A stretch of DNA of 63,734 nucleotides, filler included, from Kipferlia bialata (lineage: Eukaryota), in assembly GCA_003568945.1 (NCBI GenBank). It is 9 parts of 7 records of this genome, joined end to end, with 100 filler letters (N's around TTAATTAATTAA, not from the genome) between each part and the next. Parts side by side here need not be neighbours in the genome. Positions count along the whole stretch, not along the records: positions 1 to 11,053 come from BDIP01001302.1; positions 11,154 to 22,198 come from BDIP01001304.1; positions 22,299 to 26,509 come from BDIP01001305.1; positions 26,610 to 29,459 come from BDIP01001305.1; positions 29,560 to 40,600 come from BDIP01001306.1; positions 40,701 to 42,682 come from BDIP01001307.1; positions 42,783 to 48,144 come from BDIP01001307.1; positions 48,245 to 59,277 come from BDIP01001308.1; 1 more part is not named here. One strand, given 5' to 3'. Below the pieces are notes generated by a model. It was not told the origin of the DNA. It saw only the letters and a program-made list of their open reading frames with translations, and did not search any database. Positions 3,156 to 63,669 of this stretch are shown here, in pieces. Position numbers and translations under genes: made by a program. Every line of letters begins with the position of its first letter. The stretch's first letter is position 1.

Positions 3156-3159
<4 letters not shown>

Positions 3160-6100
3160 AGCAGAGTGTCACAGCTACTGGCCAGGAGTGATGTGACGTA
3201 GGTACCAGTCTGGTCCTGGGGACAGGGCCTGTTGGAGGAAGGGAGCTCTCCACTGGGGTAAGAAGCATATGTACACAATTGAGACATAGAGGGAGAGAGA
3301 GAGAGAGAGAGAGAGAGTCTGTTGGAGGAGGGCAGATCTCCACTGGGGTAAAAAGCATATGTACACAATTGAGACATAGAGGGAGAGAGAGAGAGAGAGT
3401 GAGTGTGTGTCGTACGAGGGGAGCTCTCCGTTGGAGTCAGACAGCATACACTGAAAGAGAATAGAGAATAGTAGAAATGGAAATTGTCATCCTGACTGGA
3501 TGTAACTATTACATGTCAATCTCATGAATTCTAGTGGTCTATACAAGCACATCAAATAATATTTATTATGAATATATTGATATTGATATAGTATATACAT
3601 ATACTCACTTGTCATTCAGGATGATCTCCCTGAGCTGTCTGCCGGACTTGGTCAGCTCCTAGGATGTTAATAAGGGTGTAGAGAGAGAGAGAGAGAGATG
3701 AGAGTACGTGGGAAATGGAGAAATAGAGAGAGAGAGAGAATATTACTATATTGTTGATTATAGACTATCGTATAGGAATGCACAGGATATATAGAATACT
3801 TAGAATATACAATATACTACTATACCTCGACCATGTTGTTGATGATCATCTCTGACAGGCCATTGCCCCTAAGATCGAGGGACTGGACTAAGGGTGAGTG
3901 TCAATACATACACATGTACACATGTATACATACATACATATATACACATATCCATACCATTGGGCATGTGCTTCAGAAGTCTGGCCAGTCTAGACCCAGT
4001 GTGGGACAGGTCATGGCCGGCTGGGGTTAGTAATACATACAATATGTATGTATTGATGTACATAGTACGATCGTATACACCACATAACACATACCGAGGT
4101 CCACTGAGGTGACGTGCTTGAAGCTCTTCCCCTCTGCCTCTCCCGCTCCCTCAGTTGGCTCACACAGAGAGGACACGTACTTGTACATGGACACAAAGCC
4201 AGTTGATCCTGAGTATTAGATAGAAATGAATATACATATATATACATAGAGAGAGAGAGAGAGAGAGAGAGGACACGTACTTGTACATGGAGACAAAGCC
4301 AGTGGAGCCTGATAATTAAATAGATATTATACATTAGACTTACAATTACACATACATAAGTACCTAGCTTGTGGTCTGTGAATGACAGGGTGGACTATAC
4401 ACACACTACTGTATACATCCTTATACATATGTATATACAGGTGCATATAAATGTAAGTACCTAGCTTGTTGTCTGTGCCTGTGAATGACAGTGTGGACTG
4501 GGAGGGGTCAGAGGCACAGGAGTCAACGATAGACTGGGGTGAGTGACCAATTTATATACACATATTCTATTATATATATGTAGAACCTTCCACCATGCCT
4601 CTGTGTGCTGTGCTACCATACCATGCATAAATATTGCATATATAGCATACACCCACTTACATATGCATACACATACCATATGTAACTAATACTATACAGT
4701 ATGTGTAGTACCTTCCACCATGCCTCTGTGTGCTCTGTCTTGGGCAGAGAGGGTACTCTGGACACAGCCATGGACTCCCTGGGTGTTAGAGGGTATGTAT
4801 TCACTAGATAATATATTCATAGATATACCATAATACCCTATTACATACTAGTTATCAACCAACAGAAACAGACACGGACTGACCCTGACTGGCAAAGATA
4901 TCCAACATAGAACACACATACATATTGACCAGCGTACCTCAGAGTGTGGAATATTGGCATTGGTATGTCTGTGACATCTGTAAAACTAACGTATAATAAG
5001 GAGACTCGCGTACATATCTTATGCAAACTCGCGTACCTCAGTGTGCCCAGGCTTGGTACTGGTCTGTCTGTGACATCTGTGGAGAGGGAGGAGAGGGCGG
5101 GGGAGACACCGCCTTATGGTAAGATAAAGGTGGGAGAGGGGGGGAGAGAGAGGGCAGGGGAGACACCGCCTATTGATCAGAGAAAGAAGGGGGTGGGGGG
5201 GCAGAGCAGAAGAGAACAAGAAGTGATACTGCAACACCCATAGTAACTACTGGAAATACTGGGCAATAATAATATTATAAGTAAACAATATTTGCACCTA
5301 TAACATTCCGGTACCCCCCCTCCCTCTGCAGGATGGATGCCCAGGTGGAGATGCGTATAGTGCATAGCATACATATAGATGATAGTACATAATTATATAT
5401 ATATCAATAAATAATATACCTATAACGTTCCGGTACCCCTCCTCCCTCTGTAGGATGGATGCCCAGGTGGAGCTCATCTTGGCAGAGATGTACTGGGGGT
5501 CAATAGAAACATGACTATATTCATATACTAATGGTGGAGCAAAAGAGAACATATGCAAGTTATACAATTATTGTAGTGAATTAACAGGTTGGGCTCATCT
5601 TGGCAGCGATGTACTGGGAGGTCAATAAATACCATTCAATACAATACAGTAGAAGAAGAGATCTCCCTCCCCCCCATCCCCACTTTCTCTATCTATATAC
5701 ACTATACCTTCTCTTGTCAGATCCTCTGTCTCTCTCTCTCTAAATATATTTGTATATCCATATATACACACACACATATATATATATCGATATAATACCT
5801 TCTCTATGACACCCTCTAGAGTGTGTACCAGCCTATCCACGCTGGGTCTGTCACAGGGGGTGCGCTGGAGTGAGTATACATGTAAATTAACGATCTATTA
5901 TACATATACATTATAATATATATGTGTTTTTGCATGAATAAATGATTAGGATACTGGGGGTGCGCTGGAGTGAGTGATTATATATTATGTACTAGTGACT
6001 ATACCTGCACTGCAGTGACTATACCTGCACTGTAGTGACTATACCTGCACTGCAGTGACGTATATGTGTAGGTATATATATACATACATATATACGGTTA

Positions 6101-6726
6101 TTGAAAAAGTATAAAGAGTAGAAATATATCAAATATAGTACGGTAAATGATCACTTGTACAGGACACATAACCACATACTTACCTGCAATATACAGTTGA
6201 TAAGGCGAGTATATATATTGAATATATAGTAGTATATATATAGTATATATCAAGAGTAGTATATATATAGTATATATCAAATATAGACTGAATATATAAC
6301 AGTGTATACTTACCTGCAGCATAGAGTTGATCAGGTCAGGTAGGCCTGGGATGTCGGTATCCTCGCTGGAGACGGTGCTAATGGTGAGATTTGAGAAGAG
6401 AAGAAATTATTAGAATGAGAAGAATGAAAAGAAACTCAGGGTGTCCAGGGAAAGAGTCCTTTCTCTAGTTATGCTATGACTTATCGCAATACAGAATCAT
6501 ATAATTTAACCAACCAACTGCATGACGACCAGTCCCTCGACAGTAATATGTATTCTACTAATCATATACTAATTCTTTTATGCATTCAGTATATATACAT
6601 ATACGTACTTGAACTGGGCGTCCTCGGCCACCAGGCCATGGGTGAAGGAGAAGTGGTTGAAGTATCCCCCTAAGGTTGGTATTCTCTCCATAACTGCTAT
6701 ATATAGACGCGGAAGTAGAAAGAGAA

Positions 6727-6765
<39 letters not shown>

Positions 6766-7085
6766 GTATTTTGTTGATGAGTCTCTCCTAAGTTGAGTAT
6801 TCTCTCCAAAACCATCAAGATAAACAGAGAGAGAGAGAGAGCTTATGATTACCTAGATGAGGTCGGACACGATACATACCCATATTAATATACAATAGGT
6901 ACTAGATATAGTACATATACACATTATTTAGTGAATTATTGTACCTGGTGAGTTGCGTCTGATGAGGTCGGACAGGACCCAGTGCCTGGAGAGCATCTGC
7001 GGTGAAAAAAGGGTGTAGAGGCAGAGAGAAAGAAAAGAGAAAGACCCAGTGTCAGGAGCATCCCAGATGATACAAGGGTGTAGAG

Positions 7086-7123
<38 letters not shown>

Positions 7124-10100
7124 TGTACCTCGCTGAAGATCAAGCCGAGTGACCAGACATCTGCAGACTGGTCATACTCCCCAATCAGTCTGGAGTAAGG
7201 AAACAATTATACAATAATACACATAAGTATGCTGGCCCCTGTACTGTTGGCAATGTATAAACGTTACTCACATGTATACACATATATACATATATAAATA
7301 ATGTATATTGCAATAACACAATAATACACAGTATATCGTATTATAACACAAAAGTAGTATGTAGATAATAATAATATGGAATGAATGGTAAATGGAAAGT
7401 GTACCTTGCCCCTGCACTGTTGTTCCAAGGTCCATAATATATATGAAAATTGAAAGTATATAGAAACACACGCACATATATATATAAATACAATTAGTAA
7501 TACACTATATGTATGTCATACCTAGCCCCTGCACTGTTGGTACCAAGGTCCACTCCGTTCTCAAAGCACTGACGTTAATGGGATAATGTCGTATAACAAA
7601 AGGGTATATACAACAGTGTATTCTATATTAAAGCACCATGTATTCATTTCTACTGTTCAGGTGCTCTGTACTGGATGCTACCTTACATAATGGCAGAGGA
7701 TATAATACATACACTCTTTCATTGTATACTATATTATATATATGAATATACATCCATACCTCTGGTGCCCTGTACATAATGTTGCCCACTCCCAGGGAGT
7801 TGGTCTGCGGGTTCTAATGGTTAGAGAGAGAGAGAGAGAGAGAGANNNNNNNNNNNNNNNNNNNNNNNNNNNNNNNNNNNNNNNNNNNNNNNNNNNNNNN
7901 NNNNNNNNNNNNNNNNNNNNNNNNNNNNNNNNNNNNNNNNNNNNNNNNNNNNNNNNNNNNNNNNNNNNNNNNNNNNNNNNNNNNNNNNNNNNNNNNNNNN
8001 NNNNNNNNNNNNNNNNNNNNNNNNNNNNNNNNNNNNNNNNNNNNNNNNNNNNNNNNNNNNNNNNNNNNNNNNNNNNNNNNNNNNNNNNNNNNNNNNNNNN
8101 NNNNNNNNNNNNNNNNNNNNNNNNNNNNNNNNNNNNNNNNNNNNNNNNNNNNNNNNNNNNNNNNNNNNNNNNNNNNNNNNNNNNNNNNNNNNNNNNNNNN
8201 NNNNNNNNNNNNNNNNNNNNNNNNNNNNNNNNNNNNNNNNNNNNNNNNNNNNNNNNNNNNNNNNNNNNNNNNNNNNNNNNNNNNNNNNNNNNNNNNNNNN
8301 NNNNNNNNNNNNNNNNNNNNNNNNNNNNNNNNNNNNNNNNNNNNNNNNNNNNNNNNNNNNNNNNNNNNNNNNNNNNNNNNNNNNNNNNNNNNNNNNNNNN
8401 NNNNNNNNNNNNNNNNNNNNNNNNNNNNNNNNNNNNNNNNNNNNNNNNNNNNNNNNNNNNNNNNNNNNNNNNNNNNNNNNNNNNNNNNNNNNNNNNNNNN
8501 NNNNNNNNNNNNNNNNNNNNNNNNNNNNNNNNNNNNNNNNNNNNNNNNNNNNNNNNNNNNNNNNNNNNNNNNNNNNNNNNNNNNNNNNNNNNNNNNNNNN
8601 NNNNNNNNNNNNNNNNNNNNNNNNNNNNNNNNNNNNNNNNNNNNNNNNNNNNNNNNNNNNNNNNNNNNNNNNNNNNNNNNNNNNNNNNNNNNNNNNNNNN
8701 NNNNNNNNNNNNNNNNNNNNNNNNNNNNNNNNNNNNNNNNNNNNNNNNNNNNNNNNNNNNNNNNNNNNNNNNNNNNNNNNNNNNNAGAGAGAGGGAGTTG
8801 GTCTGTGCCCAGGGAGTTGGTCTGTGGGTTCTAGGGGTTAAAGAGAGAGAAAGAGAGAGCCTGAGAGAAATGACATACACCTCGCGGTTGCCCAAATACC
8901 CACTATAGTAAAAGTAAAAATATACATTGTATACATAGCATTAAATACCTCCTCGCTCATGAGCTTGCTCATATATACATTATCTCCATATGTATATGTA
9001 AATATGTATTGCATTTAGTATAGTGTAAACATATCATATATATATTGTATATACCTCTTCGCTCATGAGCTTGCTCAGTAATTGATGGATAATTCAGAAT
9101 CTTCAGATGTCTAATGTAACTATAAATATATATAAATGAAAATTAATATTGTTAAGGTGTATATACCTCCTCACTCATGAGCTTGCTCAGTCCAAAGTCC
9201 ACAATCTTGACACACACGTATGAGCCTGACATGTCTATCATGATGTTCTCGGGCTGGGGTGAGACGATATCAAAATAATAATTCAATATAGAATTTACTC
9301 TCTCCCTGTGGATCATATCGGCCTTACCATGGGTATCTATACTCTCACTCTATATATCCATGTAACCATAATCGTACATATACATACACATACCTTGATG
9401 TCCCTGTGGATCACCTTGGCCTTGGCCATGGCAGACAGGGCAAGGAGGAGCTTGGATTAAGGGTGTAGAGGGAGAGAGAGGATCTGAGGGGAAACGGGAT
9501 GGTGTACAGTAATAGTATATGTGTATCAATACCTGGTGCATGATGGTCAGCATGTGAGGAAGAGGGTTCTCCTTGGACCTGGTGTTAAAAGGGTATAGAG
9601 AGAGAGAGAGAGAAAGAGATGTGGATATCGGCATATATATCGGTATGTATGTACTGACGTAGAAGTGAGAGAACAGGCGACACAATTACGAAACGAGAGA
9701 GAGAGAATACTCACCTCATGAGGTGGACCCCTATGTGCTCCTGGAGGTGCTTGCCTGGCGTGAGCAATACACTAATAGTAGTATATATATATATATATAT
9801 TAGTGTTTCAATTGTATAAATATGTCATTACAAATATATACATACCCATGCCACAACGCAAAGACCACTACTCCACCAGATCCATGACGATGACCATCTG
9901 TCAACAAATATACCAAACTTCACATATATACACACAAAGATATCTGAAATAAGGTAGGTATCATTAGTATATTAGTATTACAGTACACAATATTGTATAC
10001 ATATAAATACCTTCCACCAGCTCCATGATGATGACCATCTGGTTGGCCTCCTCTGTGTTGCGGAAGTGACGCAGGTACCTAGGGTGAGTAGAGGCGATAT

Positions 10101-10993
10101 TTAGAGAGAGAGAGAGATGGAGAGAGAGAGGGATGTTCCCGCAGTGACGTAGATAGGGGAAGATCACAGACAAGAAAGCCTCACATTCCTGTAAACCTCA
10201 TTTCACACATATACTTCAGTACATAACTACTAAATACGAGGTGTCAACCCATTCCGCATATACTCATCTACGTACTGCCCCACTGCATGCATGTACTGCA
10301 ATATATCACATGTACTCACTTGACTACGTGGGGTGTCTCTGTGTCCCTGAGGAGAATGGCAGCCCTGACATTAAGGGTGTAGAGGGAGAGAGAGAGAGAG
10401 AGATATTAGGGGAGAAGACAAATAGGGAAAGAAGGGACAGAATGGAACAACCTTGATACTAAGGGCGGGTGTAGAAAGAAAAAGAGAGAGAGAGAGAGAG
10501 AGCCTGGATACAAGCAGTACCTGATCTCTGTCTTCAGGTCCTTCTGCCTCTGGACGTAGGCAGCCCCTGACATCAAGGGTGTAGAGGCAGAGAGGGAGAA
10601 AGAGAGAAAGAGACAGATGACACTCAGTGCCGGAGGAGAGATGAACATCTCTCTCTCTCTCTCTCTACATATATATATATACATACCAGCTGCAGTCTTC
10701 ATAAATGCCTCATAGGCGTCCTCTGAGAGCTCATCCTCAGCCACCTAGGGAGTCAGAAAGACATAAGTGAGATTAAAGGGGTAGATGGAGAGAGAGAGAG
10801 AGAAAGAGAGCTCGTCCGCAGCCACCTAGAGAGTCAGATAGACATATGTGACTCTGTACTGACCAAAGATGCATTGTAGGCATATATAAATCAATATGGC
10901 AAGTATGATCCGTACCCAGTTGGGTACTGCAGGTGTGCCGCATATCCACTGGAACTTGGCAGCCACTCTGCGTCCAGTGGCAATCTCTGTGGC
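3156..10993 (-). CDS. Ser/Thr protein kinase, multi-exon, 5'-partial, spans an N gap
   Basis: Stitched GT-AG exons give RRVAAK (subdomain II, ~10960), MVIIMELVEG, IHRDIK|PEN (9395/9253), KIVDFGLSK (~9195), GNIMYRAPE (~7765), YDQSADVWSLGLIFSE (~7130-7190), DLINSMLQ and DRPS. The last exon ends LASSCDTLL*, TAG at 3156-3158. Confidence 0.9.
5994..6059. repeat. 20-bp tandem repeat (AGTGACTATACCTGCACTGY) x3 in a kinase intron
   Basis: Directly visible. Each unit contains GCAG|GTATAG on the minus strand, like the donor of the exon at ~6313. Confidence 0.85.
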
Positions 10994-11006
10994 CTGTTAT
11001 AAGGGT

Positions 11007-11052
<46 letters not shown>

Positions 11053-11053
<1 letters not shown>

Positions 11054-11153: not shown

Positions 11154-11173
11154 ATCTATATACATATATATAC

Positions 11174-12642
11174 CTGTCTCAGGTGCTGGGCTGACACGGT
11201 GCAGATCTCCTTCCCTGAGGTCAGAAGGAGAGAGACATAGTGGGGAAATACTGCATATATACTGTATATGGTATAGTAGTATTGATTTGATAGTAGTATA
11301 GATGTATTCCTACCTGGTAACACCGTGTCCCCGTCGTCAGAGAGGACGAATACTATCTACATAGTATACTCTTTAGTATATACTTATATATATAGTGAGG
11401 AATCCCCACTTGGAAACACCGTGTCCCCGTCATCGCATATATACTGTATATGGTATAGTAGTATAGATTTGAAAGTATAGTATAGTAGTATAGTAGTATA
11501 TATGTATTCCTACCTGGTAACACCGTATCCCCGTCGTCGCATATGGCTGGGCTGGGGTTAGATCATGCAGATAGGAGTTTGATGAGTACATACACACTCA
11601 TATCTATATATAGCGGGTGGGTCATATATTACTGGGAAAAGTGCAGAGCCAAAAAAGAGAGACTTATGAATGACCTAGTATCTGTTTCTGCTAGACCATG
11701 TGTCGTTCTATATATATACAAAGGCTCCTTAGAGTAGACCAACCACACTGTTAGGATGATATATATATAGATATATATAAATGATATATATATATACATA
11801 TATTTATACCTTAGATTAGACCACCCACACTGCATGAATAGACATACGGACTCATAAACACTAGTATCTCTCAGAGTATATATATCTCGCCATATATATA
11901 TGTATATATATACACACACACACATATATATATATATACCTTAGATTAGACCACCCACACTGCATGAATGCACATACGGACTCATACACATAGGTATCTC
12001 TCAGAGTATATATATATCTCGCCATATACACACACATATATATGTATACCTCAGATTAGACCACCCACACTGCATGGTGCACACAGGGCAGGCACTCTTC
12101 AGAGTCAGCGAGATACTATCCTGCGGTTTGTATCATAATTTTTAAGTGTCTCTCACAATAATCACATATTGCTATACATCATCATTCGACCCTCTACGGC
12201 GTCCACAACCTCCCCCCCTCTCTGTCTCTACACACACACACACACACACATACATGTACATGGCTAACAAACCTCTTCCTCTCCCCCTTCTGCTGCATAT
12301 AACACCTCCACCTCCACCTCTCTCCATATATTGTTTTATATATACATATATAAATGTATATATATATACATATATGGACATCTAACCTCCTCTTCCCCTC
12401 CCTCAGTAGCGTTGAACACCTCCACCTCTACTTCTACCTCTCTCTCTCTCCATATACATACATACATATACGTATTATGAATATCTACCTCTTCCTCCCC
12501 TCCCTCTGTAGCGTTGAACACTTCGACCCCTCCCTCTCCCTCTCTCTCTCTATATATACATATGACTCACTTACCTCCTCTTCCCCACCCTCTGTGGCAT
12601 TGAACACCTCCACTTCCACCTCCACCTCCTGACTCAGCTTCA

Positions 12643-12680
<38 letters not shown>

Positions 12681-14107
12681 AATATATATTTGTATACATA
12701 CATATATATACATATATCAGTATATATATGTAGTATACCTCCTCTTCCCCTCCCTCTGTAGCATTGAACACCTCCACCTCCACCTCCACCTCTTGACTCA
12801 ACTTCATCAGGGCACCGAGAGCAACGCCTATGGCCCTATTGTTAGAATACAGTACTTATGATATTTATATATAGTACATATAGTATGTGCATTATATTGA
12901 CTCAGCTTCATCTGGGCACCGAGAGCAACGCCTATGGCCCTACCGTAAGGTAATATATGTACATTTCACATATATATATATATAATATGTTAAGCTTCAC
13001 CAGGGATCTGAGAGCAACGCCAATGGCCCTGGTGGTTAGCAAATATATACCTTCATATAATAGTGTATATATCGGATATGTATATATCGGGTTATGCTTC
13101 ATAAGGGGACTGAGAGCAACACCTATATGACTCTCTCTCTCTTCCTCACTCTCCCTATACCTTGGTATGTCGTTGGATGAGGCAGACTGAGCTAGAAACA
13201 GCCAATAGAATACTATCTGTCTCAGAGGTATATATATATATATATATGTGTGTGTTAACAGACATACTTGGGTATGTCGTTGGACGAGTCTGACTGGGCC
13301 AGGAACATGTAATAGAAAACTCTCTCACACATATATATATATATATATGTTAACAGACATACTTGGGTATATCATTAGAGGAGTCTGACTGGGCCAGGAA
13401 CATGCGGATGTCCGACATAGGCATCTCGGGCATCTTGCACTGTGGGAACTGGTTGGTCTTGGGGTTAGAGAATACTCTACACATAACACTAGTATATATA
13501 TAGATGTATATATATATATATATGCGGATGTCGGACAGAGGCAGGGAGGGCATCTTGCATTGGGGGAACTGATTGGTCTGAAGATCAGAAGTCATAATAG
13601 ATATATGTAGAATATATACATATATATGATATATATATATATATATATATACATGTCAGATAGAGGCATCTCGGGCATCTTGAGAATGAGTGTATATATG
13701 TGTGTATAGATTCATAACCAAACATTAACATATACATACAATACCTGCATGAGGAAGAATGGCACTTCCTGCACTCACAGATGTATACAGACATATTAAT
13801 ATATATATATATATATCTATATCTATACATATACAATACCTGCATCAGTGAGCAAGGTACTTCCTGCATGACGGTGTCATTGGCAGTCTTGACCATGACC
13901 CTTGGGTTACATGTCCAGATACATACAGATATACCTATATACCAATATATATGTCAATATTACTATGGGTGTCATTGGCAGTCTTGACCATGACCCTGGG
14001 CTTAGATATACAGATATATATATAATACTTCATGCACTTGGGTATCATTAGATGGAAAGGGACCATACCTCAGCACTCTCTGCGCTTCATCCATATATGT
14101 ATACATG

Positions 14108-14138
<31 letters not shown>

Positions 14139-14534
14139 ATATATAAATATCTATGCAGGTATTGTATCTCCTACCTCAGCACTGTCTGCTGGGTGACAGT
14201 CTCTGTCCCAAGCATGATCTGGGAGTGAGTGCATATAATACCTACACACATATATATTGGAATGTTTATGAGATAGATAGAGAGAGATAGTCCTATTCTA
14301 TACAGATAATGATACGCATTGTATACCTCTGTGACCGTCCCTTTACCAGACTGCAGTGCTGCCAGGAGGGTGTGCACATTCACCTTGACTCCAATGTAGT
14401 TGCCAGTCCTGGACCTAGGGTGAATATATATAATTGTCAATAGTACTATATACAATATTATTGCATAAAAGAATTGTATTCATTAGTGGACCTTGACTCC
14501 AATGTAGTTGCCTGTCCTAGACCTAAAGTGAGTA

Positions 14535-15379: not shown

Positions 15380-16389
15380 ACAGGAGAGAACATAGTTCAT
15401 GATCTGGTATTAGGGGTGAATGGAGAGAGAGAGAAGTGACTCATATTACATAATATACATATATATAACTTAATACTCAAATAGAATACATATAGTAATA
15501 TTCAATCATATACAATACATACCATCAACAATGCTAGGAATCTCTTTGGCCACCTTGGTCATCTATAAATACTATATATACCAATGTACTAATTGCATAT
15601 AAATGCAATATATACCAATATACTAATTGCATATAAATATACACATACCCTGCAGAGAAATGTATAAAACATTACTATATAATATTATGACAATACTATA
15701 CTTACCATTAGAAGAGCGAGGAATCTCTTTGGCTTTGATTTGGCCACCTTGGCCATATATACATTAATATTATATGTAAATAGTGAAATGAACACTCATA
15801 TATATATAGTAACTCACCATCAGAAGAGCTAAGAACCTCTTTGGCTTAGACTTTGCCACCTTGGTGAGAACAAGACCCGCAATCTGCTCATCGACCTGGG
15901 GTTAGTCCAATACAATAATAATAATGACTACAATAATGAATTACAAAGACACTGTATCAATATACAATGGCGTCATTAGAATATCAGCAAAGCACCTTGT
16001 ACTTAGCCATGGCGACACTGAGGCTGAACCCAGAATACATATATATATATATATACATAAATGAATACATGTACTAATCACTATTCTAATGATGCCATTG
16101 GATTATGAACCTTGTACTTGGCCATGGCGACACTGAGGCTGAACCCAGTATATAAATATATATATACAAATATACATGTATCACTATTCCAATGATGTCA
16201 TTAGAATAGTAGCAAAGCACCTTGTACTTGGCCATGGCGACACTGAGGCTGAAACCGGCCAGAACCAGAAGGACAGTCCCACTCATCATGCCAGAAATGA
16301 TCTGACAATAAGGGTCAAGAGGGAGAGAGAGAGATAGAGAGAGAGCCACTCATCATGCCAGAAATGATCTGAAAATAAGGGTCTAGAAG

Positions 16390-16428
<39 letters not shown>

Positions 16429-17059
16429 GATTAGTCCCACTCATCATGCCAGAAATGATCTGAAAAAATAAGGGGCTAGAGAGAGCGAGAGAGAGAAAGA
16501 GAAAGAGGGAGAGAGAGAGGTCCTATACCTCGCTTGCTGCGTCACCAGGGGCAAGAACCTCGTCGGTGTCGGAGTCCTGACATTAGGGGGCTAGAGAGAG
16601 AGAGTGAGAGGGAATCCGAGAGCGTATACTGTACGAATATTTACCGGTGAGTAAGTAGGACACATATATATTTATATATATATTACATTGTAATTATTGT
16701 AGAGTAGCGGTTAAAAGTGTACCGTTAGGACGTATGACACGCATACCACAAAGGTGATATATATACATATATATATATATATACATATATATATGTACTT
16801 CTAATGAATAGACAAACAGAAAGTAGTATATCCTAACCTTTAGGACGTATGGGACGCATACTACGAATGGTATCACTAGTGCAGTATATATGCATGAATA
16901 CCATAATACTGATATAAAGTATATACACTGTATATACCTTAAGCACGTAGGATACGCATACCACGAATGGTATGACTAGGGCTGTGACATGGAGGGGCAG
17001 GGCCTCGGCACCCCAGAGGATAGAGGCACCTAGGACAATACCTAGACAGCGCCTATGCT

Positions 17060-17094
<35 letters not shown>

Positions 17095-18443
17095 CCTCGG
17101 CACCCCAGAGGATAGAGGCACCAAGCACTATACCAAGGCAGCGCCTATGATAAAAAAAGAGAAAAAGAAAAACACCAAGTCTTGACAGCGCCTCTCTTTA
17201 CAGTATATACACATACATATATACTACCATATTGACTATAGAGCACCTAGCTGTAGCCTCCATGGCTGTCACAAACACAGAGCAGCTGACACCCACAATG
17301 AGGGCAAGGATTATGAAGATGACGTCCTGAGAATAAGGGGGTAGGGAGAGAGAGAGAGAGAGAGAGATACACCCACAATGAGGGCAAGGATCATGAAGAT
17401 GAAATCCTGATATTAAGGGGCTAGGGGGAGAGAGGGAGAGAGAGAGAGAGAGAGTAAATACCTTCAGTGTGACCGAGAAGACCTTGTGCTCCTTCTCTCT
17501 CTGCTCCTCCTTGTCGGAAGAGAGATCCAGCTGGGCCTTGGCCTGCAATAAGGGTCTAGGAGGAGAGAATAAAGGGTGTAGAGGGAGAGAGAGAGGTTCC
17601 TAACCTGGTGAGCCCCCCAGTCCACGAGGTATGGGTTCTTCTTCCAAGAGAGAGAGGACTCTACAGCAGACAGAAGACCTGAAATAAGGGTGTAGAGGGA
17701 GAGAGAGAGAGAGGACTCTACAGCAGACAGAATGCCTGGAATAAGGGTGTAGAGGGGGGGAGAGAGAGAGGGAGTGGGAGCAGAAGAAGTGTATATTGGA
17801 CTAGCGTTGTACACAGGATATACCCACCTGCCCTCTGCTCCTCCCCCTGCTCTCCCATCCTGGTGCAGTATATATACTATATACATAGTATATCTACACA
17901 TATTACATATATATTACGTATATATATATATACATGTATATACCTGCCCTCTGCTCCTCCCCCTGCTCTCCCATCCTGGTGCAGTATGCGCTGAAGGCAT
18001 CGCCTGGTATTAGTATCAGAATATATATACATTATTATATAATACCATAATATATATGTATATATATACATTATTATATAATACATTAATATCCCCCATC
18101 CTTGTGCAGTATGCACTGAAGGCATCGCCTGGGGTCAGATAATATAATAATTATAGTTACATTTCACAATAATAAATATGAATTACAATAATTGTATAAT
18201 AGTAATGATACTGGTGCAGTATACGCTGAAGGCGTCGCCTAGTGTCAGTGGCAGTATGCAGTATACATACATATGAATCAGACTGAATATTGTAGCTACT
18301 GTCCTTGTCAGCTACAAAATTGTAACCATAATCATGTAACTGATACCTAGCTCGGTGGTCAGCTCCTCGATAGTACTTGTATTTTTAGTATATATGTACT
18401 AATCACTAGTCTATTGCAAAGTATATTCAATTATATATATATC

Positions 18444-18475
<32 letters not shown>

Positions 18476-20049
18476 TATCATTATACCTAGCTCGGTGGTC
18501 AGCTCCTCAAGGCGGGAGGTGTCAGAGAAGGGCTGGTCGCGCATCTGGTATTAAGGGGCTAGAGAGAGAGAGAGAGAGAGAGAGAGAAGGGCTGGTCACG
18601 CATCTGGGATTAAGGGGCTAGGGAGAGAGAGACAGAGAGAGAGTAGGTACCTCCATGTGCAGGTTGCTGTCCAGCAGGTGACTGTGCCTGTACAATATAA
18701 CACTACTCCATATACAATATGAATACATGTATGTGTACAATACATATATATATATATATACGTGTATATAGATATATATGTCTATATACCTCCATGTGCA
18801 GGTTGCTGTCCAGCAGGTGGCTCTGCCTGTACAATATATAATACTACTCCATATACAATATGCATACTCATGTATCTATGTGTACAATATACATATATAT
18901 ATATATGTGTGTGTGTGTGTATATACATATGTATATATATACTATACTGCATTATTACCTCCATGTGCAGGTTGCTGTCCAGCAGGTGGCTGTGCAAAGA
19001 TATATATATATATGTATATATATGATAATACTCACAAATATACATAATAGTTAGGGGGCTAGAGAGAGAGAAAGAGAGAGTATAATACCTCCATGTGCAG
19101 GTTGCTGTCCAGGAGGTGACTGTGCCTGTACAATTTATAACACTACTCCATATACTATATGAATACATGTATGTGTACAATACATATATATATGTGTGTA
19201 TATACATATATATGTATATATGTACCTCCATGTGCAGGTTGCTGTCCAGCAGGTGGCTGTGCCAGTACAATATACAATACTACTCCATATACTATATGAA
19301 TACCCATGTATGTGGACAATATATAAACAATAAACATACATATATACTAAATATACATGTATATACCTCCATGTGCAGGTTGCTGTCCAGCAGGTGACTG
19401 TGCAGGTACCATATATATGTGTATATGATAATACTCACAAGTATACATAATAGTTAGGGGGCTAGAGAGAGAGAAAGAGAGAGTATATATACCTCCATGT
19501 GCAGGTTGCTGTCCAGCAGGTGACTGTGCATGCGACGGTCGGCCTTCTTGCAGATCTTGCTAAAGGTGAGAATAGAATAGATATAGAGATACGCATATAT
19601 GCAAATAGTTCGGCCTTCTTGCAGAGCTTGCTGAGTGTTAACACACATATATATACATAAATATCTATATGTCTATATGTACATACCGCAGGGCAGTGAG
19701 GTTGAGCTCTGCGTGGTCGATGAGCTCAAAGAGGTGGACCATCTCATCAAACATCCTGGGGGTAAATAAGGGTGTAGAGAAAGAGAGAGAGAGAGAGAGA
19801 GAAGATGAGGCACTCTCTTAAACACTGATAGTGTAGCAATATATATATTCACATACCTCTTCTTGAGTACTGACTCGTATGCATAATACACACATATATA
19901 TATACTATAGATAATACATATGATATATAGGGTGTATATATGTGTATATACCTCTTCTTAAGGACAGACTCGTATGCCTCTGTGTCCACATTGTCACCAG
20001 AGGATAGACGGGTGATGAGAGAGGCCACACGCTCCTCTGGATATAAGGG

Positions 20050-20083
<34 letters not shown>

Positions 20084-20834
20084 CTGCCAGCCTCAGGTGC
20101 TCGTGGTGGAACAGGTTGCAGGCATCAACCTCAGACTGGAGCAGAGTAACAAACCTTTCATAAGAAGGCCAGGTATGTATGTATAATATATAATACACAC
20201 AAATAATATATTATATGTGCAGACCATATAAACAACACATATATAAATACATATACATATCATAATGTATTGCATCATAATGTATTGCATCATATATATA
20301 TATATAGTATATACCTGGCGATGTTTGCGGCACTCCTCTCCTGCGCCAATCTCTTCTTCCTGGCCTAGAAGTGAATAAGGGGTGTAGAAGGAGAGAGTAA
20401 AAGGGTGTAGAAGGAGAAAGAAGTAAGTGATAGTGTTGGCCTAGAAGCGAATAGAGGGTGATGAAGAAGAGAAGCAATCAAACACTGTTTACTAATACAT
20501 ATGAAGTGATTAGTACTAGAATATACGATAGGGTTATTACTCGATTAAAATAGCTATCCATATACATAAATATACCTGCAGGTGCATGTGTGCATTGGAC
20601 AGAGCACGGGGTCTGCCTCTGGACCTAGTGGTAAAAGGGTGTAGAGGGAGAGAGATATAGAAATATAACACTGTATATGCGGTAAACGGGTGAAGAAGAG
20701 TAATAGGGGTGAAGAGGAGACATGGATATAGTGAACATGGAAACATACACATTCATATATTTACAATAGAATAAATACACATAAGTATACTACAAAGCGT
20801 TTACCATACCTGTCTGAGACCTCACTGGCCTCAC

Positions 20835-20876
<42 letters not shown>

Positions 20877-22063
20877 CCTCTCTGACACCTCACTGGCCTC
20901 ACGGTCCACACCGGGCACTGGGGTGAGATGAGTATATATAATGAATATTGATATATATACATGGAGATAGAGAGATAGGGAGAGAGAGAGAGAGGGAGAG
21001 ACCTCACGGTCCACACGAGGCTCTGGGGTAAGAGAATACCAATTTATATATCGAGAGAGAAGAACAGAAAACAAAGTAGTCATCATTCAATGTCATATGG
21101 ATAGTAGGGATATGGATATCGTCCAACTAGTGCTTACATACCCTCCAGTGTGTCTGTCACGACCACAGGGTCAGGAAGGGCAGACTCCTCTGGATATAAG
21201 GGTCTAGAGAGAGAGAGAGAGAGAGAGAGATGTCAGGGAGGGGACACTCCTATTGATATAAGGGTCTAGAGAGAGAGAGGGGGGGGGGCATTGAGGGAAG
21301 CGATAGGGATGGATATATGAGGAGAGGGGGATGTGAAGAAATGGGACCGGTACACAATTCATTCACATATATATATTTACCTGTGACAGCCCCCATATAC
21401 ATATAAATATATGTATATACATACTTATACTTGAATGTATATATAACTATCAATATGTATATACCACCTATACCTGTGACAGCCCTCTCAGCTATGGTTG
21501 CCAGCTCAGACAGGGGGATGTGGGGTGTATCAGCCTCAGACACCTCAGGAGAGGCAAGGGTGGACTCTGAGAATAAGGGTGTAGAGGGAGAGAGAGAGAG
21601 AGAGAGATGTGGGGGGTATCAGCCTCAGAGACCTCGGGAGAGGCAAGAGTAGACTCTGAGAATAAGGAGGATAGAGAGTGAGAGAGAGAGAGAGAGACAG
21701 AGATTGAAGCCAAATAGTGTGTAGAGGGTGGGAGGAGAGAAAGAAAGATAGGGAGGGAGACACCTAGGGGGCGACACGGGTACGACTCTAAGATGATACA
21801 GTTGTGGGGGGGGGGGTAGGAAGTGAAAGGGAGACCTTGGGAGAATACAAAGTACGCATCAGTATGATATTATATATATGTGCATATGTATACATATGTT
21901 TACCTAGTCCTCCATTGCACACATCCTCCTGGGTGATACAACACTCATATACTCATATGTATATATATATACCTACACTACAATATATATAGAGTATATA
22001 CACATACATACCTAGTCCTCCGTTGCACACATCCTGCTGGGTGATACCGGCCTTGATGATGTC
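15372..22063 (-). CDS. SPX-domain SLC13/DASS phosphate transporter (Pho87/Pho90/Pho91-like), partial at both ends
   Basis: SPX motifs RFVTLLQSEVDACNLF and AELNLTALRKICKKADR (lysine cluster). TM blocks RCLGIVLGASILWGAEALPLHVTALVIPFVV, MMSGTVLLVLAGFSLSVAMAKYKV and RFLALLMIMNYVLSCVIS match Pho87-family LLWATEAIPLFVTSLLIP / LLLGGFTIAAALSKY. Confidence 0.88.
18649..19560 (-). repeat. Interspaced array of ~38-bp exon-3'-end copies (7 units including the true exon)
   Basis: ACCTCCATGTGCAGGTTGCTGTCCAGCAGGTGRCT at 18649, 18788, 18957, 19087, 19224, 19365 and 19491. Only the last extends into the full exon KICKKADRRMHSHLLDSNLHME. Confidence 0.92.
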
Positions 22064-54891: not shown

Positions 54892-57380
54892 ATGCAGAAA
54901 GGGAGGCAACAGAAGGAGGGAGGTACCAGCAGTGAGCAGTCTGGCTATCAGTGTATATATATGATGATAGTATATATCCCTAGAGATCATCCCTCTGATG
55001 CCAGCCATGCAGAGCATCCCTCTAAATGCCCTGGCTACCCCCAAGGGACATCGCTATCTGTGCGACATCTGTGGTGGCATATCCACAGTCATGTGCCCTC
55101 TGTGCAGGTATGGGATAGTAGTATTCTAGTGAATATTGTATATATATAGTGAATGTCTCTGCATCTGATCACCCTCCCTTTGTTCTTGCATCTTAGGTAT
55201 TGTGGGGAATCAGTCTTAGACTTGCTTGTCTTCACTATCCTATACATAACAGTGTCTGTTGGATGTCCCTCTCTTACGAACAGGTCCAGCTACTGCTGCC
55301 AGGAGCACTACGAGCTGGATGTCCTGGCTGTCCACCCCTCCATATGTGACACCCTTGCAGAGCTAAGGTGGGATGCTGGTTGCATGTGTGCGTCGCACTC
55401 TTGTGCCGTCCTCTCCTCCATATACCTCTTTATACCTCTTTTGACTCTCCATGTGTATATATATTTATGTTGAGTATTGTGACGTCTCTGGCACTCTGAG
55501 GACACTCCGTTACTCCTAACTGACAGGGGTGTTACTGTTGGTGTCAGATACTTGGCTGTATTAAATCACTATGTATGTACTTGCCCCTGATTAAGTATAT
55601 ATTTGTATATATATTTTGTGGTTGCCTCTGACTATCAGAAAGATCAGCGCCTCCCCCCCTCACTCTGAGAAGGATAGGGAGACACAGGATGCATACAGGC
55701 GGTACGTATACATGGCTATATATACGTACGGTGGGGTCTCCACTCCCGTGTCTCTTGCTCTCGCTCTCTCTCTCCCTGTGCCAACCCCAGCAACCTGCGT
55801 GAGAGCATCATGACTGTGGCCGAGAGGGCTGCCCTGGAGCACCTGGACGGGGGCAAGGAGAGGGCATCCACAGGTATATATGCATACATACACTAATATA
55901 TGGTGTAAGAGTGCATATATATGGTATATGGACAAGGGGAGGGCGTGGTGTAGGATATATTATATACATGTATAGATGGGCGCGGTATGGGTTGATATAG
56001 TATGTATGTACTGATATTTATCAGGCTTCGGCAGGTTGTTCACTTCTCCGCTCTCCTTGAAAGTATGTGTTCGTATGCAATGGCTGTGGGTGTGGGTATA
56101 CATGGGGACAATAGGGAGAGCCTCCAGAATGTTAAGGCGGTTATTCTGGTACCCTCTGTATACCTATAGTCTCTCACCCCCAGCTATGGTAGCTGCCCTA
56201 AGGTGTCTGAGGTTTGCGGCTGTGTCCTTCCCTGATGAGCCTCTGGCCAGTGTGAGGCCCCTCTTCCTGTTGAGTGAGGCAGCGCTACAGGTGGGGGCAG
56301 GGCTGGTGGAGAGTGGTCATGTGATGTACATATGTGATATGTATGATATATATGATATATATGATATACTACAGGTGGGGGCAGGACAGGTGGAGGGGTG
56401 TATTGAATATGATCATTGGGCAGGGCTGAATGTGGGAGATGATGCTTGTATATCTACCACCTTGTAGTTGGATAGTCAAGGATGGGTGTTGATACTTGTG
56501 TGCTCCCCGTGTTAGTAACCACACTGTATACCAACCCCTCACGCTAGGCCAATGACTTCACATCCGTGCACAAGTATGTCCTGAGTGCCAGGAGACTGTT
56601 GCAGGTGGGATGCGTGGATATATGTGATTGTTAGTTACATTTATATATGAAGGACACATACGATAGTGGGACTTGTTGTTTAGAGTCTATACACCATTGT
56701 GCATCCAGGACACCTGCTTTATGTCTAATCTATATCTATATATTTATATATCTATCCGTATATATATATATATTTCTAACACCCCAGGTTGAGAGAGAAA
56801 GAGTTGGGGATTTCTTGGTGGGTATTGTCCACGACATTCCTAGGTATGCAACTATTAGTATATTTATATACACATGCATTTCTGTGTTCATGGCGCCTGT
56901 GAATACCTTTTCGCATACCCTTGTGTCACTATTTGACCCCCTCCGCCTCCCCCTTCCTCACCCCTTCAGAACTAGGGACCTCGCAGAGCTGTGGGCCGAT
57001 CTCCACCTCCTGCTCGGCAGGTATGGTGTATATGTATAATTGTACATATTGTAGTAGTTAATTAGTGTCCTCTTCCCTCTCCACCTCTTGCTCGGCATTG
57101 GTACACTCTCTCTCTCTCTCCCTCTTGGGTTCTTGGATCAGATGTGTTTGAGGTCTCGTTGCTGGCAGTAGAGACGCTATTTGTAGCCAACTTGAGCTGT
57201 TGCCCCCCCCCCCCCCTACACCCTTATTGTCAGGGCTGCCCATGTACAAGGCAAGGCCTCCCTGGATTCCATCAACAAGGACTTCTCTCTGGCTGCGGTA
57301 CGACCTCTCTCTGTAGTTGAACCTTTAGCGTAGCAATTGAAACCCTTCTACAGCTTCCACTGACCCTAGTGTGTGATTGG

Positions 57381-57411
<31 letters not shown>

Positions 57412-58804: not shown

Positions 58805-59377
58805 AGACAATCCGTGGTTGGAAGGGTGTCAACGGATGGGCACTGTTTGTAGTGTATTATGATTTGGTGTGGAATGCTGGACTCTAGTAAATATGAGTAA
58901 TCAGGTTTTGTAATGGAGCGTGTGCACCAGGAATCCGGGAATTGTGGTGCACCAGCACCCCTGCACCCTTTTGTCCCATTCACACTATCACACCATTCAT
59001 GACGTCTCTCTACTCTAGTCTAGACCCATATACCAGGACCCCTGCTTCACTCAGTGGTCGTCAAGGTGTGTGTTGTCTACTCTCTCTGTGCCATTTACAC
59101 ACACCATCCTCTCTCTCTATCCCTCTCTCTCTCTCCCCCCCCCCCCCCCCTCTCTCCTCTATCCACCCCCCTCCCCCCACCACCACAGCCTTGGGGTGGC
59201 CATTGCTCAGCCCGTTAGTCCAACGAACGGGAACAAACGTCAGAAGCGTTTCACACCGTCTTAGGGCAAATCGCCTTNNNNNNNNNNNNNNNNNNNNNNN
59301 NNNNNNNNNNNNNNNNNNNNNTTAATTAATTAANNNNNNNNNNNNNNNNNNNNNNNNNNNNNNNNNNNNNNNNNNNN

Positions 59378-60321: not shown

Positions 60322-62078
60322 CTACTCTATCATGTCTATCCCCTTGTGGTGCTGGTGTCTGAGTGTGTCCCCCAGGGCCCTGGCCTGACTGGCCCAGCCC
60401 CGAAGCTTGGCGGCCATGGCGAGGACCTGGGAATGAGAATGTATCAATATATATATCACGATGTAGTATATATAGACAATATATATATACTGATACTGGC
60501 CCACCCTCTCAGCTTGGCAGCCATGGCGAGGACCTAGGGGGTTAGTCTATAGTGTATGAATAATATTGTATATGAATATTATAGATGGAGAGACAACATC
60601 CCCGAAGCTTGGCGGCCATGGCGAGGACCTGGGGATGAGATTGTATCAATATATATATCACGATGTAAATAGACAATAGTCCCTCAGCTTGGCGGCCATG
60701 GCGAGGACCTACGTGGTTAGTCTATAGTGTATAAGAACACATATAGACAATGATACGAACATTGATACTTATAGTCTACACACCTGCTCCCTGGACATGG
60801 GGCTTGATGGATGCGAAACCAAGTACACATATATACATCATAAGTGTATGTATCATATGCATGTATGTACATACACACATCCCCTACCTGCTCCCTGGAC
60901 ATTACTCTTGGCTCTATGGATGTGACAGCCAGGGTCATGGCCACACCATCGATCATACCCTCAATCAGACCAAGCTCGAGGGCCCTGGGGGGTCAGTATG
61001 GTATATGTCAGAATATTATATCTCAGTATGGTATATCTCAGTATAGAAAATCTCTAGTATGGTATGTGACAGTATATGTATATCCCCTACCTCAGCACCG
61101 TGTGCACTGGCACTGTCTCAGACAGGGGCACACACCCCCTGTCAGAGGGGGGGAGGGCCTGGGGTAAGAAGGACACAAAGGTATCAATATATACATTTAG
61201 TATACATATACTCTTCACTTGTATACATATATATATATATAACACCCTCTGTCGGAGGGGGGAGGGTCTGGGGGTCAGGGTGCATATCCATTGATCTTCT
61301 CCATATATACATGTATAATGATACATCCAGTGTGGATAAGAGTGACAGCACAGCCATCCACTCACACTCCCTCCATACATATATGTATATATATATATGT
61401 ATGTATATGTGTTATCTTAGTACCTCCAGTGTGGACAGCAGGGACAGGACAGCCAGCTTCTCCGTGACTGCAGGTGATGCACACACTGCATCCCCATACA
61501 GTGCTGTGATGATGGGCACTGCCTGGGAGATGGAGGCAGAGTCCCCCTGGGTCAGCAGCGTGCACAGCTGGAGGGTCTGAGGCATGGCCTGGGGTCAATA
61601 TACATTAATACATATGGATATACATACACACATATATATATGTATATAAAGATAGATGAGGGGGGTGGGGGGGGCACAGCTCGAGGGTCTGAGGCATGGC
61701 CTGGGGTTAGTATGTATATACAAATATAAACATACACATATATATATATGTACATAAGAAGATAGAATGAGGGGGGGGGGGGGGCAGAGATCGAGTATCT
61801 CTGCGGTATGGCCTCGGGTCGGAATGAATAGTATTTTAGATATATATATAGGGAGAGAGAGAGACACGTGGCCTGAGGGTGGGAGTGAGTATATATACGC
61901 CATTGGTACTACACTCCTGAGTCCTAGTGTGAGCAGTGCCTGTATGCGTACAGATGCATGAGTCTCTCTTATATATACATGTATGCATATAGACCCTACA
62001 CATAATACATCCTCCCAATCCATACCTCTGTGAGGAGTGCCTGTATGGGTCCTTGGTATATATGTATATATACACTTA

Positions 62079-62110
<32 letters not shown>

Positions 62111-63669
62111 CATAACCTATGGGTAACACACATATACTTCTGTATACCTCTGTGAGGAGTGCCTGGATGGGTGGTGGGTAGAGAGAGAGGAACGACACTC
62201 TCTTGGGCATGCACAGTGCACACTGCAGGGCATAGGCAGACAGACGCACGATGCACTGCTTGTCAAAGGCAGTCACGCTCTGCCTATAGGTGAGGTATGG
62301 AGAGAGATAGAAGTGAGCAAAAAGATATATATCCATGGGAGTATAGGTAGGTGGGTGAATAGATGGTGAGTATGTATCGCAGAACGACCGGTAATACATG
62401 ACATTACCTATCTGTGAATGTAGCTGTGAACACCCCATACAGGTTGAGGTACTGGCTGTACAGACCCGGCACGCCCTGGGGTGAGGACATATATACAAAG
62501 TGTAATAGAATATGTGTCACTGATATACACAAACACCCCTATATACCTGGTGCTACATGAGTGCATCCATGTGTCCATTCTCAGTATGATATACATACAT
62601 ATATTATGAACACAATCCTCTCTCCCTATATATATACACCCACCTGATGTACCATCAGTGCCCCCATGTGACCCATCCTCAGGATGTCACTGTCCAGCTT
62701 GGGGACAATGTCCTGGGGTTGGAGTGGTATATAGTATATATGTACATACACACATATATATATATACATTGACAATAGATATATATGCTGAGTGTGTCAC
62801 TGTCCAGCTTAGGGAGAATGTCCTGGGGGGTCAGAGAGAGACAGACACATGTGTCGATACACATAGTCTCCTATATCTACCCACCTGCTTCATGAGCTCT
62901 GCCGTCTGTGCTGGCAATGTGACGTGTGTCTCCAGTATATATTACATGTATAATTAAAATACATACATATACCATATATGCCATACCTGCTTCATGAGCT
63001 CTGCTGTCTGTGCCGCCAGTGCCACGTGTGTCTCGAGTGATGCCTCTGTGGACATGGCACTGAACAGGAGGGACAGGGCCTGCTTGCCCCACTTGACAAG
63101 GGGGTCAGTCTCGGGCATGGCCTCTAAAAGTTAGAGTAAAAAGAGGTATGGATATATTAATAGAGAGAGAGAGAGAGAGAAACACTTGACAAGGGGGTCG
63201 GTCTCGGGCATGGCCTCTGAATATGAGATTAAGAATGTGAGAGGGGAAGAGAGAGAGAAGGAGGGGGGGGGGGAGTACTATACACATACCCACTATGGCC
63301 TTGACCTCGTCTGGCACAGTACAGACCCCTGTGACTGGGACCTCGGATATGTACGAGGTGCAGAGGTAGTACACAACGTGCACAGCCTGGGAGTAAGGCC
63401 AGAACGTATGGAGTACAGTACTCACTATAGATGGGTGATTGTACAGGTGGTACACAATATGCTACGTCTGTGTGGATACAATACAATATCCAGCGTGCAG
63501 TGAATAGCACATGTATAATGTAGTTGTAGAATATATAGTATACCATACCTCATGGGGTGGCAGGTACTCGAGGTATATGCTGCATGTGTTGAACAGGGGT
63601 GTTAGGACAGCTGGGTCACACAGGGTGGAGAACACAGACAGCAGCTCGTGGCTGAACTGGTACCACAGC
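60322..63669 (-). CDS. PSMD13: 26S proteasome lid subunit RPN9/PSMD13, multi-exon, 5'-partial
   Basis: N-terminal LWYQFSHELL and C-terminal PCI ALELGLIEGMIDGV..VTSIEPRVMSREQ|VLAMAAKLRGW match RPN9 LWHQLT and KALSVGLVKGSIDEV..VQPRVLDLQQI..M..RL..W. TAG at 60322. Confidence 0.85.

What the first reader, a model, noticed from the sequence alone, without database searches (positions are those of the whole stretch)
3156..63200. Window-wide 'exon echo' system: introns hold serial, often synonymously recoded copies of the neighbouring exon ends
Seen: in the kinase, HUS1, SPX transporter, CTR9 and RPN9 genes (4 separate contigs), many introns contain 1-6 partial copies (15-60 nt) of the flanking exon, separated by AT/microsatellite spacers. 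Copies of the exon 3' end plus GT donor lie downstream of the exon; copies of branch-AG plus exon 5' end lie upstream. Where copies have diverged, changes concentrate at synonymous sites (worked examples below). Established: a non-coding duplicate should accumulate mostly amino-acid-changing substitutions. Inference: echoes are (a) pieces captured from diverged alleles or relatives by template-switch/unequal recombination, making introns an ordered archive of allelic variants, or (b) translated alternative exon ends. Either way the spliceosome must bypass many apparently intact decoy sites. I know of no named system like this.
Basis: partly seen in the sequence, partly recalled or inferred. 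Interest (0 to 1): 0.9.

Follow-up and report, generated by a model that had tools for sequence, protein, structure and literature searches.

The report
Introns storing other alleles' exon ends
In five genes of the free-living protist Kipferlia, most introns hold short, skipped copies of the neighbouring exon's end that differ from it mainly by silent changes, likely because they were copied from very different versions of the same genes, which would let one genome reveal its species' diversity.

Summary
Confirmed, and stranger than ordinary duplication. The exons match Kipferlia bialata proteins at 100%. 127 partial exon copies lie in 62 of 84 introns of five genes (about 1 expected by chance). 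117 reach the facing splice site; none reaches the far one. Short-read DNA contigs bridge copies and exons at near single-copy depth, and RNA contigs use the outermost sites. That layout is what any duplication across a splice site gives (human F7, CBS). The substitutions are not: 0-fold/4-fold divergence is 0.157, whereas dead copies simulated through the same pipeline give 0.50-0.54. The copies' own lineages give 0.17 (95% 0.11-0.28). Frameshifts and lost GT/AG show they are now dead. Likely reading: ends of diverged working alleles (silent divergence about 0.22-0.24), left by recombination that starts in exons, then multiplied by unequal exchange. No second isolate was found, so the source alleles are inferred. 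The pattern is regional (3 of 48 other introns). The scan noted this layout before in a sea urchin gene, where the silent share fitted the dead-copy null; here it does not.

The parts
3156..10993 (-). Protein kinase gene (partial), 25 exons; 20 exon-end copies in 13 of 24 introns
   Evidence: P0004 spliced exactly onto window; Pkinase E 2.8e-34; census, counts
11174..14414 (-). Hus1-like gene, 3' part; 19 copies in 6 of 7 introns (four donor-side copies at 12272-12642)
   Evidence: P0003, Hus1 E 1.2e-06
15380..22063 (-). SPX-domain transporter gene (partial); 31 copies in 16 of 19 introns
   Evidence: P0003, SPX and Na_sulph_symp
18545..19492 (-). Largest array: six donor-side copies (18651-19404) and one acceptor-side copy (18583-18603) in one 948-nt intron, with shared far ends and recurring spacers
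30259..40339 (-).
32192..33010 (-). Intron with one donor-side and four acceptor-side copies; RNA contig joins the outermost sites
   Evidence: table 7 (loose end at 32193 equals the true upstream exon)
31668..32100 (-). Intron with two donor-side copies (31977-32031: 10 of 11 changes silent) and one acceptor-side copy (31747-31781) that the public protein wrongly counts as an exon; RNA contig skips all three
   Evidence: table 8 (record 13, letters 3077 to 3078)
31330..31805 (+). Stretch bridged by one DNA contig with no differences at depth 365: exon, donor-side copy, exon, acceptor-side copy
   Evidence: table 8 record 6; 425 and 385 for records 1 and 2
60325..63665 (-). PCI-domain (RPN9-like) gene, 10 exons in window; 12 copies in 6 of 9 introns
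   Evidence: P0001, weak Rpn9_C
41864..41890 (-). Single acceptor-side copy in a DEAD-box-like gene (echo-poor contig)
   Evidence: hand model
57078..57097 (+). Single donor-side copy in a plus-strand gene, GT lost; shows the pattern is not strand-bound
   Evidence: hand model

Best explanation
The copies are real, skipped, now-dead duplicates of exon ends with their splice sites, and they likely came from other, strongly diverged working alleles of the same genes rather than from the exon beside them. Shown: the layout, the skipping at the junctions tested, and that each copy's own lineage was under protein-level selection for most of its history. Inferred: in a very diverse recombining population only the short exons stay alike enough to pair; a break in an exon is repaired from the other allele, synthesis runs past the splice site into that allele's unlike intron, and the ends are then joined without homology, so one allele's exon end works and the other's is pushed into the intron with its GT or branch-AG. 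Later unequal exchange between exon and copy multiplies the unit and refreshes it from further alleles. Copies then decay for about 0.02-0.03 substitutions per site on average. The spliceosome likely ignores them because a half exon has only one splice site, so only the true pair defines an exon.
For: 0-fold 94 of 2694 vs 4-fold 155 of 697 sites differ, ratio 0.157; one copy per group, bootstrap 0.117-0.241; dead-copy simulation 0.50-0.54, while 0.11-0.12 extra functional time per side plus 0.02-0.03 dead time reproduces 0.221/0.034. Copy-to-copy ratio 0.20; copy branch d4 0.148, d0 0.025, exon branch 0.066, 0.006; changes private to one copy 54 silent, 48 not. Holds for each base, at 2-fold sites (52 transitions, 16 transversions vs 61, 94 at 4-fold) and at first positions (13 of 18 silent), and in all five genes (0.09-0.31). 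GT, AG and 0-fold sites all about 93-97% kept while the intron just beyond GT is only about 0.45 identical (background 0.32), as expected of working alleles with unlike introns. Copy splice sites score like real ones. More than two source haplotypes: 8 of 344 4-fold comparisons have three states vs 1 of 1496 at 0-fold; in 15 of 72 pairs both copies carry their own silent change. 36 of 72 pairs share the far end within 3 nt yet still differ at 31 of 154 4-fold sites. K. bialata has Spo11, Dmc1, Msh2 and Pol theta and no Ku70 (PMC8516963 Supplementary Data 2 rows). Crossovers favour exons in hypervariable Schizophyllum (PMC4209137 abstract).
Against: No second isolate or allele was seen: the metagenome motif scan gave 2 unrelated loci, and the laid contigs list no other letters in 3.2 kb (contigs drop variants). 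The implied silent diversity (about 0.22-0.24) would match or exceed the 0.20 reported as the highest for S. commune (PMC4576712 passage). Sex has not been observed in metamonads (PMC8516963 passage). Copies with and without recognisable intron flank homology are equally diverged, and only 1 of 239 site pairs fails the four-gamete test, so direct signs of exchange are few. Amino-acid changes are not conservative (mean BLOSUM -0.32 vs -0.43 random). The break-repair step cannot be told from slippage followed by allele shuffling with one genome.
Confidence: 0.55

Rival explanations
1. Copies arise by slippage or sister-chromatid duplication across the splice site, identical at birth, and frequent recombination in a very diverse population later swaps the exon, the copy and their flanks among alleles. 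The source of the silent differences is the same (allelic diversity); only the birth step differs.
For: 27 of 117 copies keep clear intron-flank homology with the real site; shared far ends in 36 of 72 pairs; block-wise repeats in the 948-nt SPX intron.
Against: Most flanks are unlike from the third base after GT, which exchange confined to exons would not produce; no age ladder with distance; no microsatellite enrichment at far ends.
Confidence: 0.2
2. The sources are several diverged lineages or cryptic species brought together by past hybridisation or by long asexual divergence of homologues, not standing diversity in one sexual population.
For: Per-copy third-position divergence is overdispersed (chi2 188.9, df 126; 32 copies with none vs 20.9 expected). 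Sex unobserved in the group.
Against: Three-state silent sites and mostly private changes (76 one-copy, 18 shared, 8 three-state) need more than two parents; no second similar gene copy seen (each protein cluster has one member; 0 of 8 laid RNA records at 90-95% likeness).
Confidence: 0.11
3. The copies are in use now, through rare splicing, template switching or DNA deletion that swaps them in for the exon end, and are kept by selection.
For: Strong silent bias; GT 63 of 68, AG 44 of 49 kept; one stop seen where about 4.8 are expected from the random stop share.
Against: RNA contigs skip 10 copies in four introns with no other letters; 4 of 92 intact sites keep a frame; 9 of 13 indels shift frame; no listed DNA joint collapses a copy onto its exon (table 5; 6 rows not shown). 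Contigs cannot exclude rare forms.
Confidence: 0.06
4. Assembly artefact: haplotypes of a mixed culture chained through TA/GA repeats.
For: Only short-read contigs could be laid; the best DNA holder may be the data the window came from; some bins have no cover and no piece spans the four-copy array.
Against: One contig spans exon-copy-exon-copy with no differences at depth 365, and other junction contigs are at 292-414 vs 385-425 for records 1 and 2, not a half or a fifth; copies carry frameshifts, a stop and lost GT/AG; none covers a whole exon; far ends not enriched at microsatellites; RNA shows one exon version.
Confidence: 0.05
5. Ordinary dead tandem duplicates, silent bias arising only because the live exon is under selection.
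Against: Predicts ratio at least 0.5 and neutral private changes; observed 0.157, distinct changes 194 silent of 303 vs 0.47 at most (P 2e-9), copy branch 0.17 with largest bootstrap value 0.37.
Confidence: 0.03

Closest known systems
Human F7 intron 7 37-bp VNTR spanning the exon 7 donor (PMC1557585, abstract read)
   Same: Tandem copies of exon end plus donor downstream of the real donor; the most upstream site is used and the pseudo-sites stay silent.
   Different: One locus, pseudo-sites identical in sequence; here 62 of 84 introns in five genes, about 100-nt units with unlike spacers, both donor and acceptor sides, and copies with a history of protein-level selection.
[quoted passage not shown]
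   Same: Acceptor-side junction duplicate; the distal site is used and the upstream exon piece is spliced out; copy and exon differ at one base.
   Different: Single polymorphism, one copy; no array and no systematic silent bias.
Exon-biased crossing-over in hypervariable Schizophyllum commune (PMC4209137 abstract; PMC4576712 passages)
   Same: At high allele divergence recombination is confined to conserved exons; silent diversity 0.20 and replacement/silent ratio 0.12-0.13 resemble the values inferred here (0.22-0.24; about 0.09).
   Different: Those texts, as far as read, report crossovers and diversity, not duplicated exon ends in introns; diversity there is measured, here inferred from one genome.
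Polymerase-theta-dependent tandem duplication (PMC13031629, search listing only); one-sided invasion and Dmc1 mismatch tolerance (recalled)
   Same: Homology-primed synthesis ended by non-homologous joining leaves a tandem duplicate; K. bialata has Pol theta and Dmc1, lacks Ku70.
   Different: Not shown here; a homologue rather than sister template is inferred from the silent differences.
Intron gain by tandem genomic duplication (PMC3265369, PMC4974935, search listing only) and duplicated mutually exclusive exons (recalled)
   Same: Local tandem duplication in genes involving splice signals.
   Different: Here copies lie inside existing introns, are half exons with one splice site, and are skipped.

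Membership tests
Junction-spanning tandem duplicates (F7 IVS7 VNTR, CBS 844ins68 type) | Direct, local copies that begin in the exon and cross the splice site | tested here: met
   117 of 127 reach the facing site, 0 the far site; 79 near direct vs 1 inverted repeat
Junction-spanning tandem duplicates (F7 IVS7 VNTR, CBS 844ins68 type) | Outermost sites used, inner pseudo-sites silent | tested here: met
   RNA contigs skip 10 copies in four introns; other introns rest on public protein models; rare use not excluded
Junction-spanning tandem duplicates (F7 IVS7 VNTR, CBS 844ins68 type) | Copies identical to the exon at birth and then drifting neutrally | tested here: not met
   ratio 0.157 vs 0.50-0.54 simulated; copy branch 0.17
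Junction-spanning tandem duplicates (F7 IVS7 VNTR, CBS 844ins68 type) | Copy number varies among individuals | not testable with these tools
   no second isolate found
Duplicated mutually exclusive exons (live or decayed) | Whole exon with both splice sites, or decay leaving either end at random | tested here: not met
   0 of 127 within 6 nt of the far site; largest 82% of exon
Silent-cassette gene conversion systems (vls, pilS; recalled) | Cassettes kept in frame and copied into the expressed site | tested here: not met
   9 of 13 indels frameshifting, one stop; transfer itself not testable with one genome
Intron gain by tandem genomic duplication | A new intron is formed between two copies of coding sequence | tested here: not met
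   copies lie wholly inside GT-AG introns whose outer sites join continuous frames
Haplotype-chaining assembly artefact | Copy-specific junctions at fractional depth and whole-exon variants | tested here: not met
   junction contigs 292-414 vs 385-425, no other letters; 3.2 kb only, short-read contigs, possibly the source data
Hyperdiverse recombining species (S. commune type) | Measured silent diversity above about 0.1 among isolates | not testable with these tools
   inferred 0.22-0.24 from copies; needs isolates

The most novel reading that the evidence does not exclude
Kipferlia bialata is among the most diverse eukaryotes known and recombines so often between unlike alleles that its introns are built from displaced exon ends of other alleles; about 100 nt of intron is added per event, echo density maps recombination rate along the genome, and a single genome holds a population sample from which silent diversity (about 0.23) and replacement/silent ratio (about 0.09) can be read, giving sequence evidence of sex in a group where it has never been seen.
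Probability: 0.4. Interest if true: 0.9.

Novelty: new variant of a known kind. Interest (0 to 1): 0.72.

Why it matters
If the copies are captured alleles, one assembly yields population-genetic estimates and evidence of outcrossing in a free-living metamonad, a group in which sex has not been observed. It would add a route of intron growth (about 104 nt per copy on a base of about 127 nt) tied to Dmc1-only, Ku-less break repair. It is a natural test of splice-site choice in a reduced spliceosome (87 of 174 proteins, PMC6679479 passages): 27 of 68 copy donors and 17 of 49 copy acceptors score as well as the real site, yet the outer pair is used where tested. It also misleads gene finders: a public protein contains one copy as an exon.

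Tried and rejected
No whole genome is held, so no genome-wide census. Reads could be laid on only 3.2 kb; bins without cover there are no evidence either way; both runs are contigs of one sample, so neither is independent support and rare isoforms or alleles cannot be excluded; no listed holder is on record as RNA (X2 is a guess, but its contigs join exons across introns). Metagenome scan with an intron-end motif: 2 loci, neither related, no repeats. Age ladder by distance: none. Microsatellite-mediated junctions: no enrichment. Link between flank homology and exon-side divergence: none. Four-gamete test: 1 of 239. Gene conversion between exon and dead copy without allelic diversity was considered by reasoning only: it would push the ratio towards 1, not below 0.5. 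Base-specific mutation bias rejected. P0005 was a weak unrelated hit. Literature: ten searches showed no paper on exon-end copies in Kipferlia or on silent-biased junction copies; one search listed 25 of 33 and 25 of 66 papers, and the library lacks most subscription journals. In PMC5874029 I read passages and one section, which give 124,912 introns and do not mention such copies; its supplements were not opened.
Full report
Source. The window is nine contig pieces joined by a fixed linker. Three exon queries each found one protein, 100% identical over the matched part and named by its source as Kipferlia bialata; a fourth came from an unnamed library. This is a free-living fornicate with 124,912 introns (PMC5874029, passages and section 12 read). 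No whole genome was held.

Gene models. The four proteins splice exactly onto the window with GT-AG introns. I removed one annotated exon that RNA skips and left out the two annotated introns around the gap between the SPX and Hus1 genes. That leaves 89 exons (median 68 nt) and 84 introns in five genes, with open frames. Pfam supports kinase, SPX plus transporter and Hus1, weakly Rpn9, and nothing for 'CTR9'.

Census. 127 copies lie in 62 of 84 introns, against about 1.1 expected. 68 of 75 upstream-exon copies end at the donor position and 49 of 52 downstream-exon copies start at the acceptor position; none of 127 reaches the exon's other end. In all 19 introns with both kinds the donor-side copies come first. 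Each copy adds about 104 nt of intron (rho 0.85). In 48 hand-modelled introns of contigs 4, 6, 7 and 8 there were 6 hits, 3 of them at a splice site, so the pattern is regional.

Real DNA? On 29560-32800, DNA contigs of run X1 match with no other letters; one spans exon, copy, exon, copy (31330-31805) at depth 365, other junction contigs are at 292-414, and records 1 and 2 at 425 and 385. Chained haplotypes would give fractions. Limits: short-read contigs, possibly the window's own source data, several bins uncovered, no piece across the four-copy array.

Splicing. Contigs of X2 join 32100 to 31666, 31584 to 31397 and 30599 to 30353 directly, and two loose ends match the true upstream exons. 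Ten copies in four introns are skipped. Only 4 of 92 intact copy sites would keep a frame. Copy sites score as well as the real site in 27 of 68 donors and 17 of 49 acceptors, so position, most simply pairing of two sites across a short exon (inference), decides. This matches F7 intron 7 (abstract) and CBS 844ins68 (passages). The polarity is the geometry of any duplication across a splice site.

Substitutions. 226 of 342 mismatches are silent; 4-fold sites differ at 0.222, 0-fold at 0.035, ratio 0.157. The right null is not 1: with a constrained exon and a dead copy it is about 0.5, and simulation through the same alignment and threshold gave 0.50-0.54. Counting each change once gives 194 of 303 silent (P 2e-9 against 0.47); one copy per group gives 0.117-0.241. 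The bias sits on the copies' own branches: copy-to-copy 0.20; in 29 multi-copy groups the copy branch has d4 0.148 and d0 0.025 (ratio 0.11-0.28), the exon branch 0.066 and 0.006 (the shorter exon branch may partly reflect detection by likeness to the exon). It is frame-aware: it holds per base, at 2-fold sites and at silent first positions. So the ancestors of the copies were translated for most of the time since they parted from today's exon. Yet they are dead now: 9 of 13 indels shift the frame, one stop, GT lost in 5 of 68, AG in 5 of 49, amino-acid changes not conservative. The intron side next to the kept GT or AG is far more diverged (about 0.45 identity), clearly homologous in only 27 of 117.

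Source of the copies. Two working versions must have coexisted. Whole duplicated exons are excluded by strict polarity. A second gene copy in this genome is not seen (single-member clusters; no RNA record at 90-95% likeness). That leaves alleles or lineages. Changes are mostly private (76 one-copy, 18 shared, 8 three-state at 4-fold sites), there is no ladder by distance, and half of the pairs share a far end yet still differ silently, which suggests one founding junction refreshed by unequal exchange. The fit needs about 0.22-0.24 silent divergence between sources and 0.02-0.03 of dead time, near the 0.20 reported for Schizophyllum commune (passages), where crossovers favour exons (abstract).

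Mechanism (inferred). A break in an exon invades the other allele's exon, copies through its splice site into its unlike intron, fails to re-anneal and is end-joined, leaving the old exon end inside the intron. Fornicates lack Rad51A and Ku and use Dmc1 paralogues (PMC8516963 passages); K. bialata has Spo11, Dmc1, Msh2 and Pol theta (supplement rows; one scanned supplement could not be searched). Dmc1's tolerance of mismatches and the one-sided-invasion model are recalled, not from a call. Slippage followed by allele shuffling gives much the same picture and is the main rival. Microsatellites are not enriched at the junctions.

Against. No second isolate, no variant seen in the laid stretch, sex unobserved in the group, few direct signs of exchange (1 of 239 four-gamete pairs).

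Novelty. The layout is known from single human loci, and an earlier scan note (e1-9861148, unchecked by me beyond applying the same null here) found it in a sea urchin gene with 43 of 107 silent changes, fitting dead copies. Ten literature searches showed nothing on this density or on copies whose own lineages were selected. Verdict: a real feature, a new variant of junction-spanning duplication, most likely recording allelic hyperdiversity; interest 0.72.

Noticed in passing
window 31743-31781: Public protein P0002 counts this acceptor-side copy as an exon, giving a doubled 13-residue stretch; the RNA contig skips it.
   Followed up: yes
window 14735-15403: Public protein P0003 fuses the SPX transporter and Hus1 genes across an N gap; the bridging exons look like copies or intron, and the true Hus1 exon probably lies in the gap.
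   Followed up: partly
window 10365-21591 and 57212-57240: A shared intron 3' end, (CT)n then CTA-x-x-CCCTTA-x-x-x-x-CAG, recurs in unrelated genes (7 exact pattern matches, 0.00 by chance); branch-like motif sits a few bases from the AG in nearly all introns. Could be extended branch pairing or a family of related introns.
   Followed up: partly
window 42783-59277 (contigs 7, 8): Introns here are shorter, richer in G+C (0.45-0.49 vs 0.35-0.40) and nearly free of copies: the genome seems to have echo-rich and echo-poor domains.
   Followed up: partly
window 18545-19492: Spacers recur in blocks and contain a near-complete short intron end cut off at the branch region, then AT-rich filler of unknown origin.
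   Followed up: partly
window 49250-50375: A 13-nt tandem repeat runs into both sides of a 1000-N gap inside an intron.
   Followed up: no
window 22700-25330, 26669-28526, 41530-42623, 47454-47945: Intron-poor kelch-like frames, a SET-domain-like gene, a DEAD-box-like gene and an intronless V-ATPase c-like gene; names by eye from translations, not tested.
   Followed up: no
window 3159-3252: The frame of the kinase's last exon rests on the public model alone; its two copies show 5 of 10 silent changes in that frame.
   Followed up: partly
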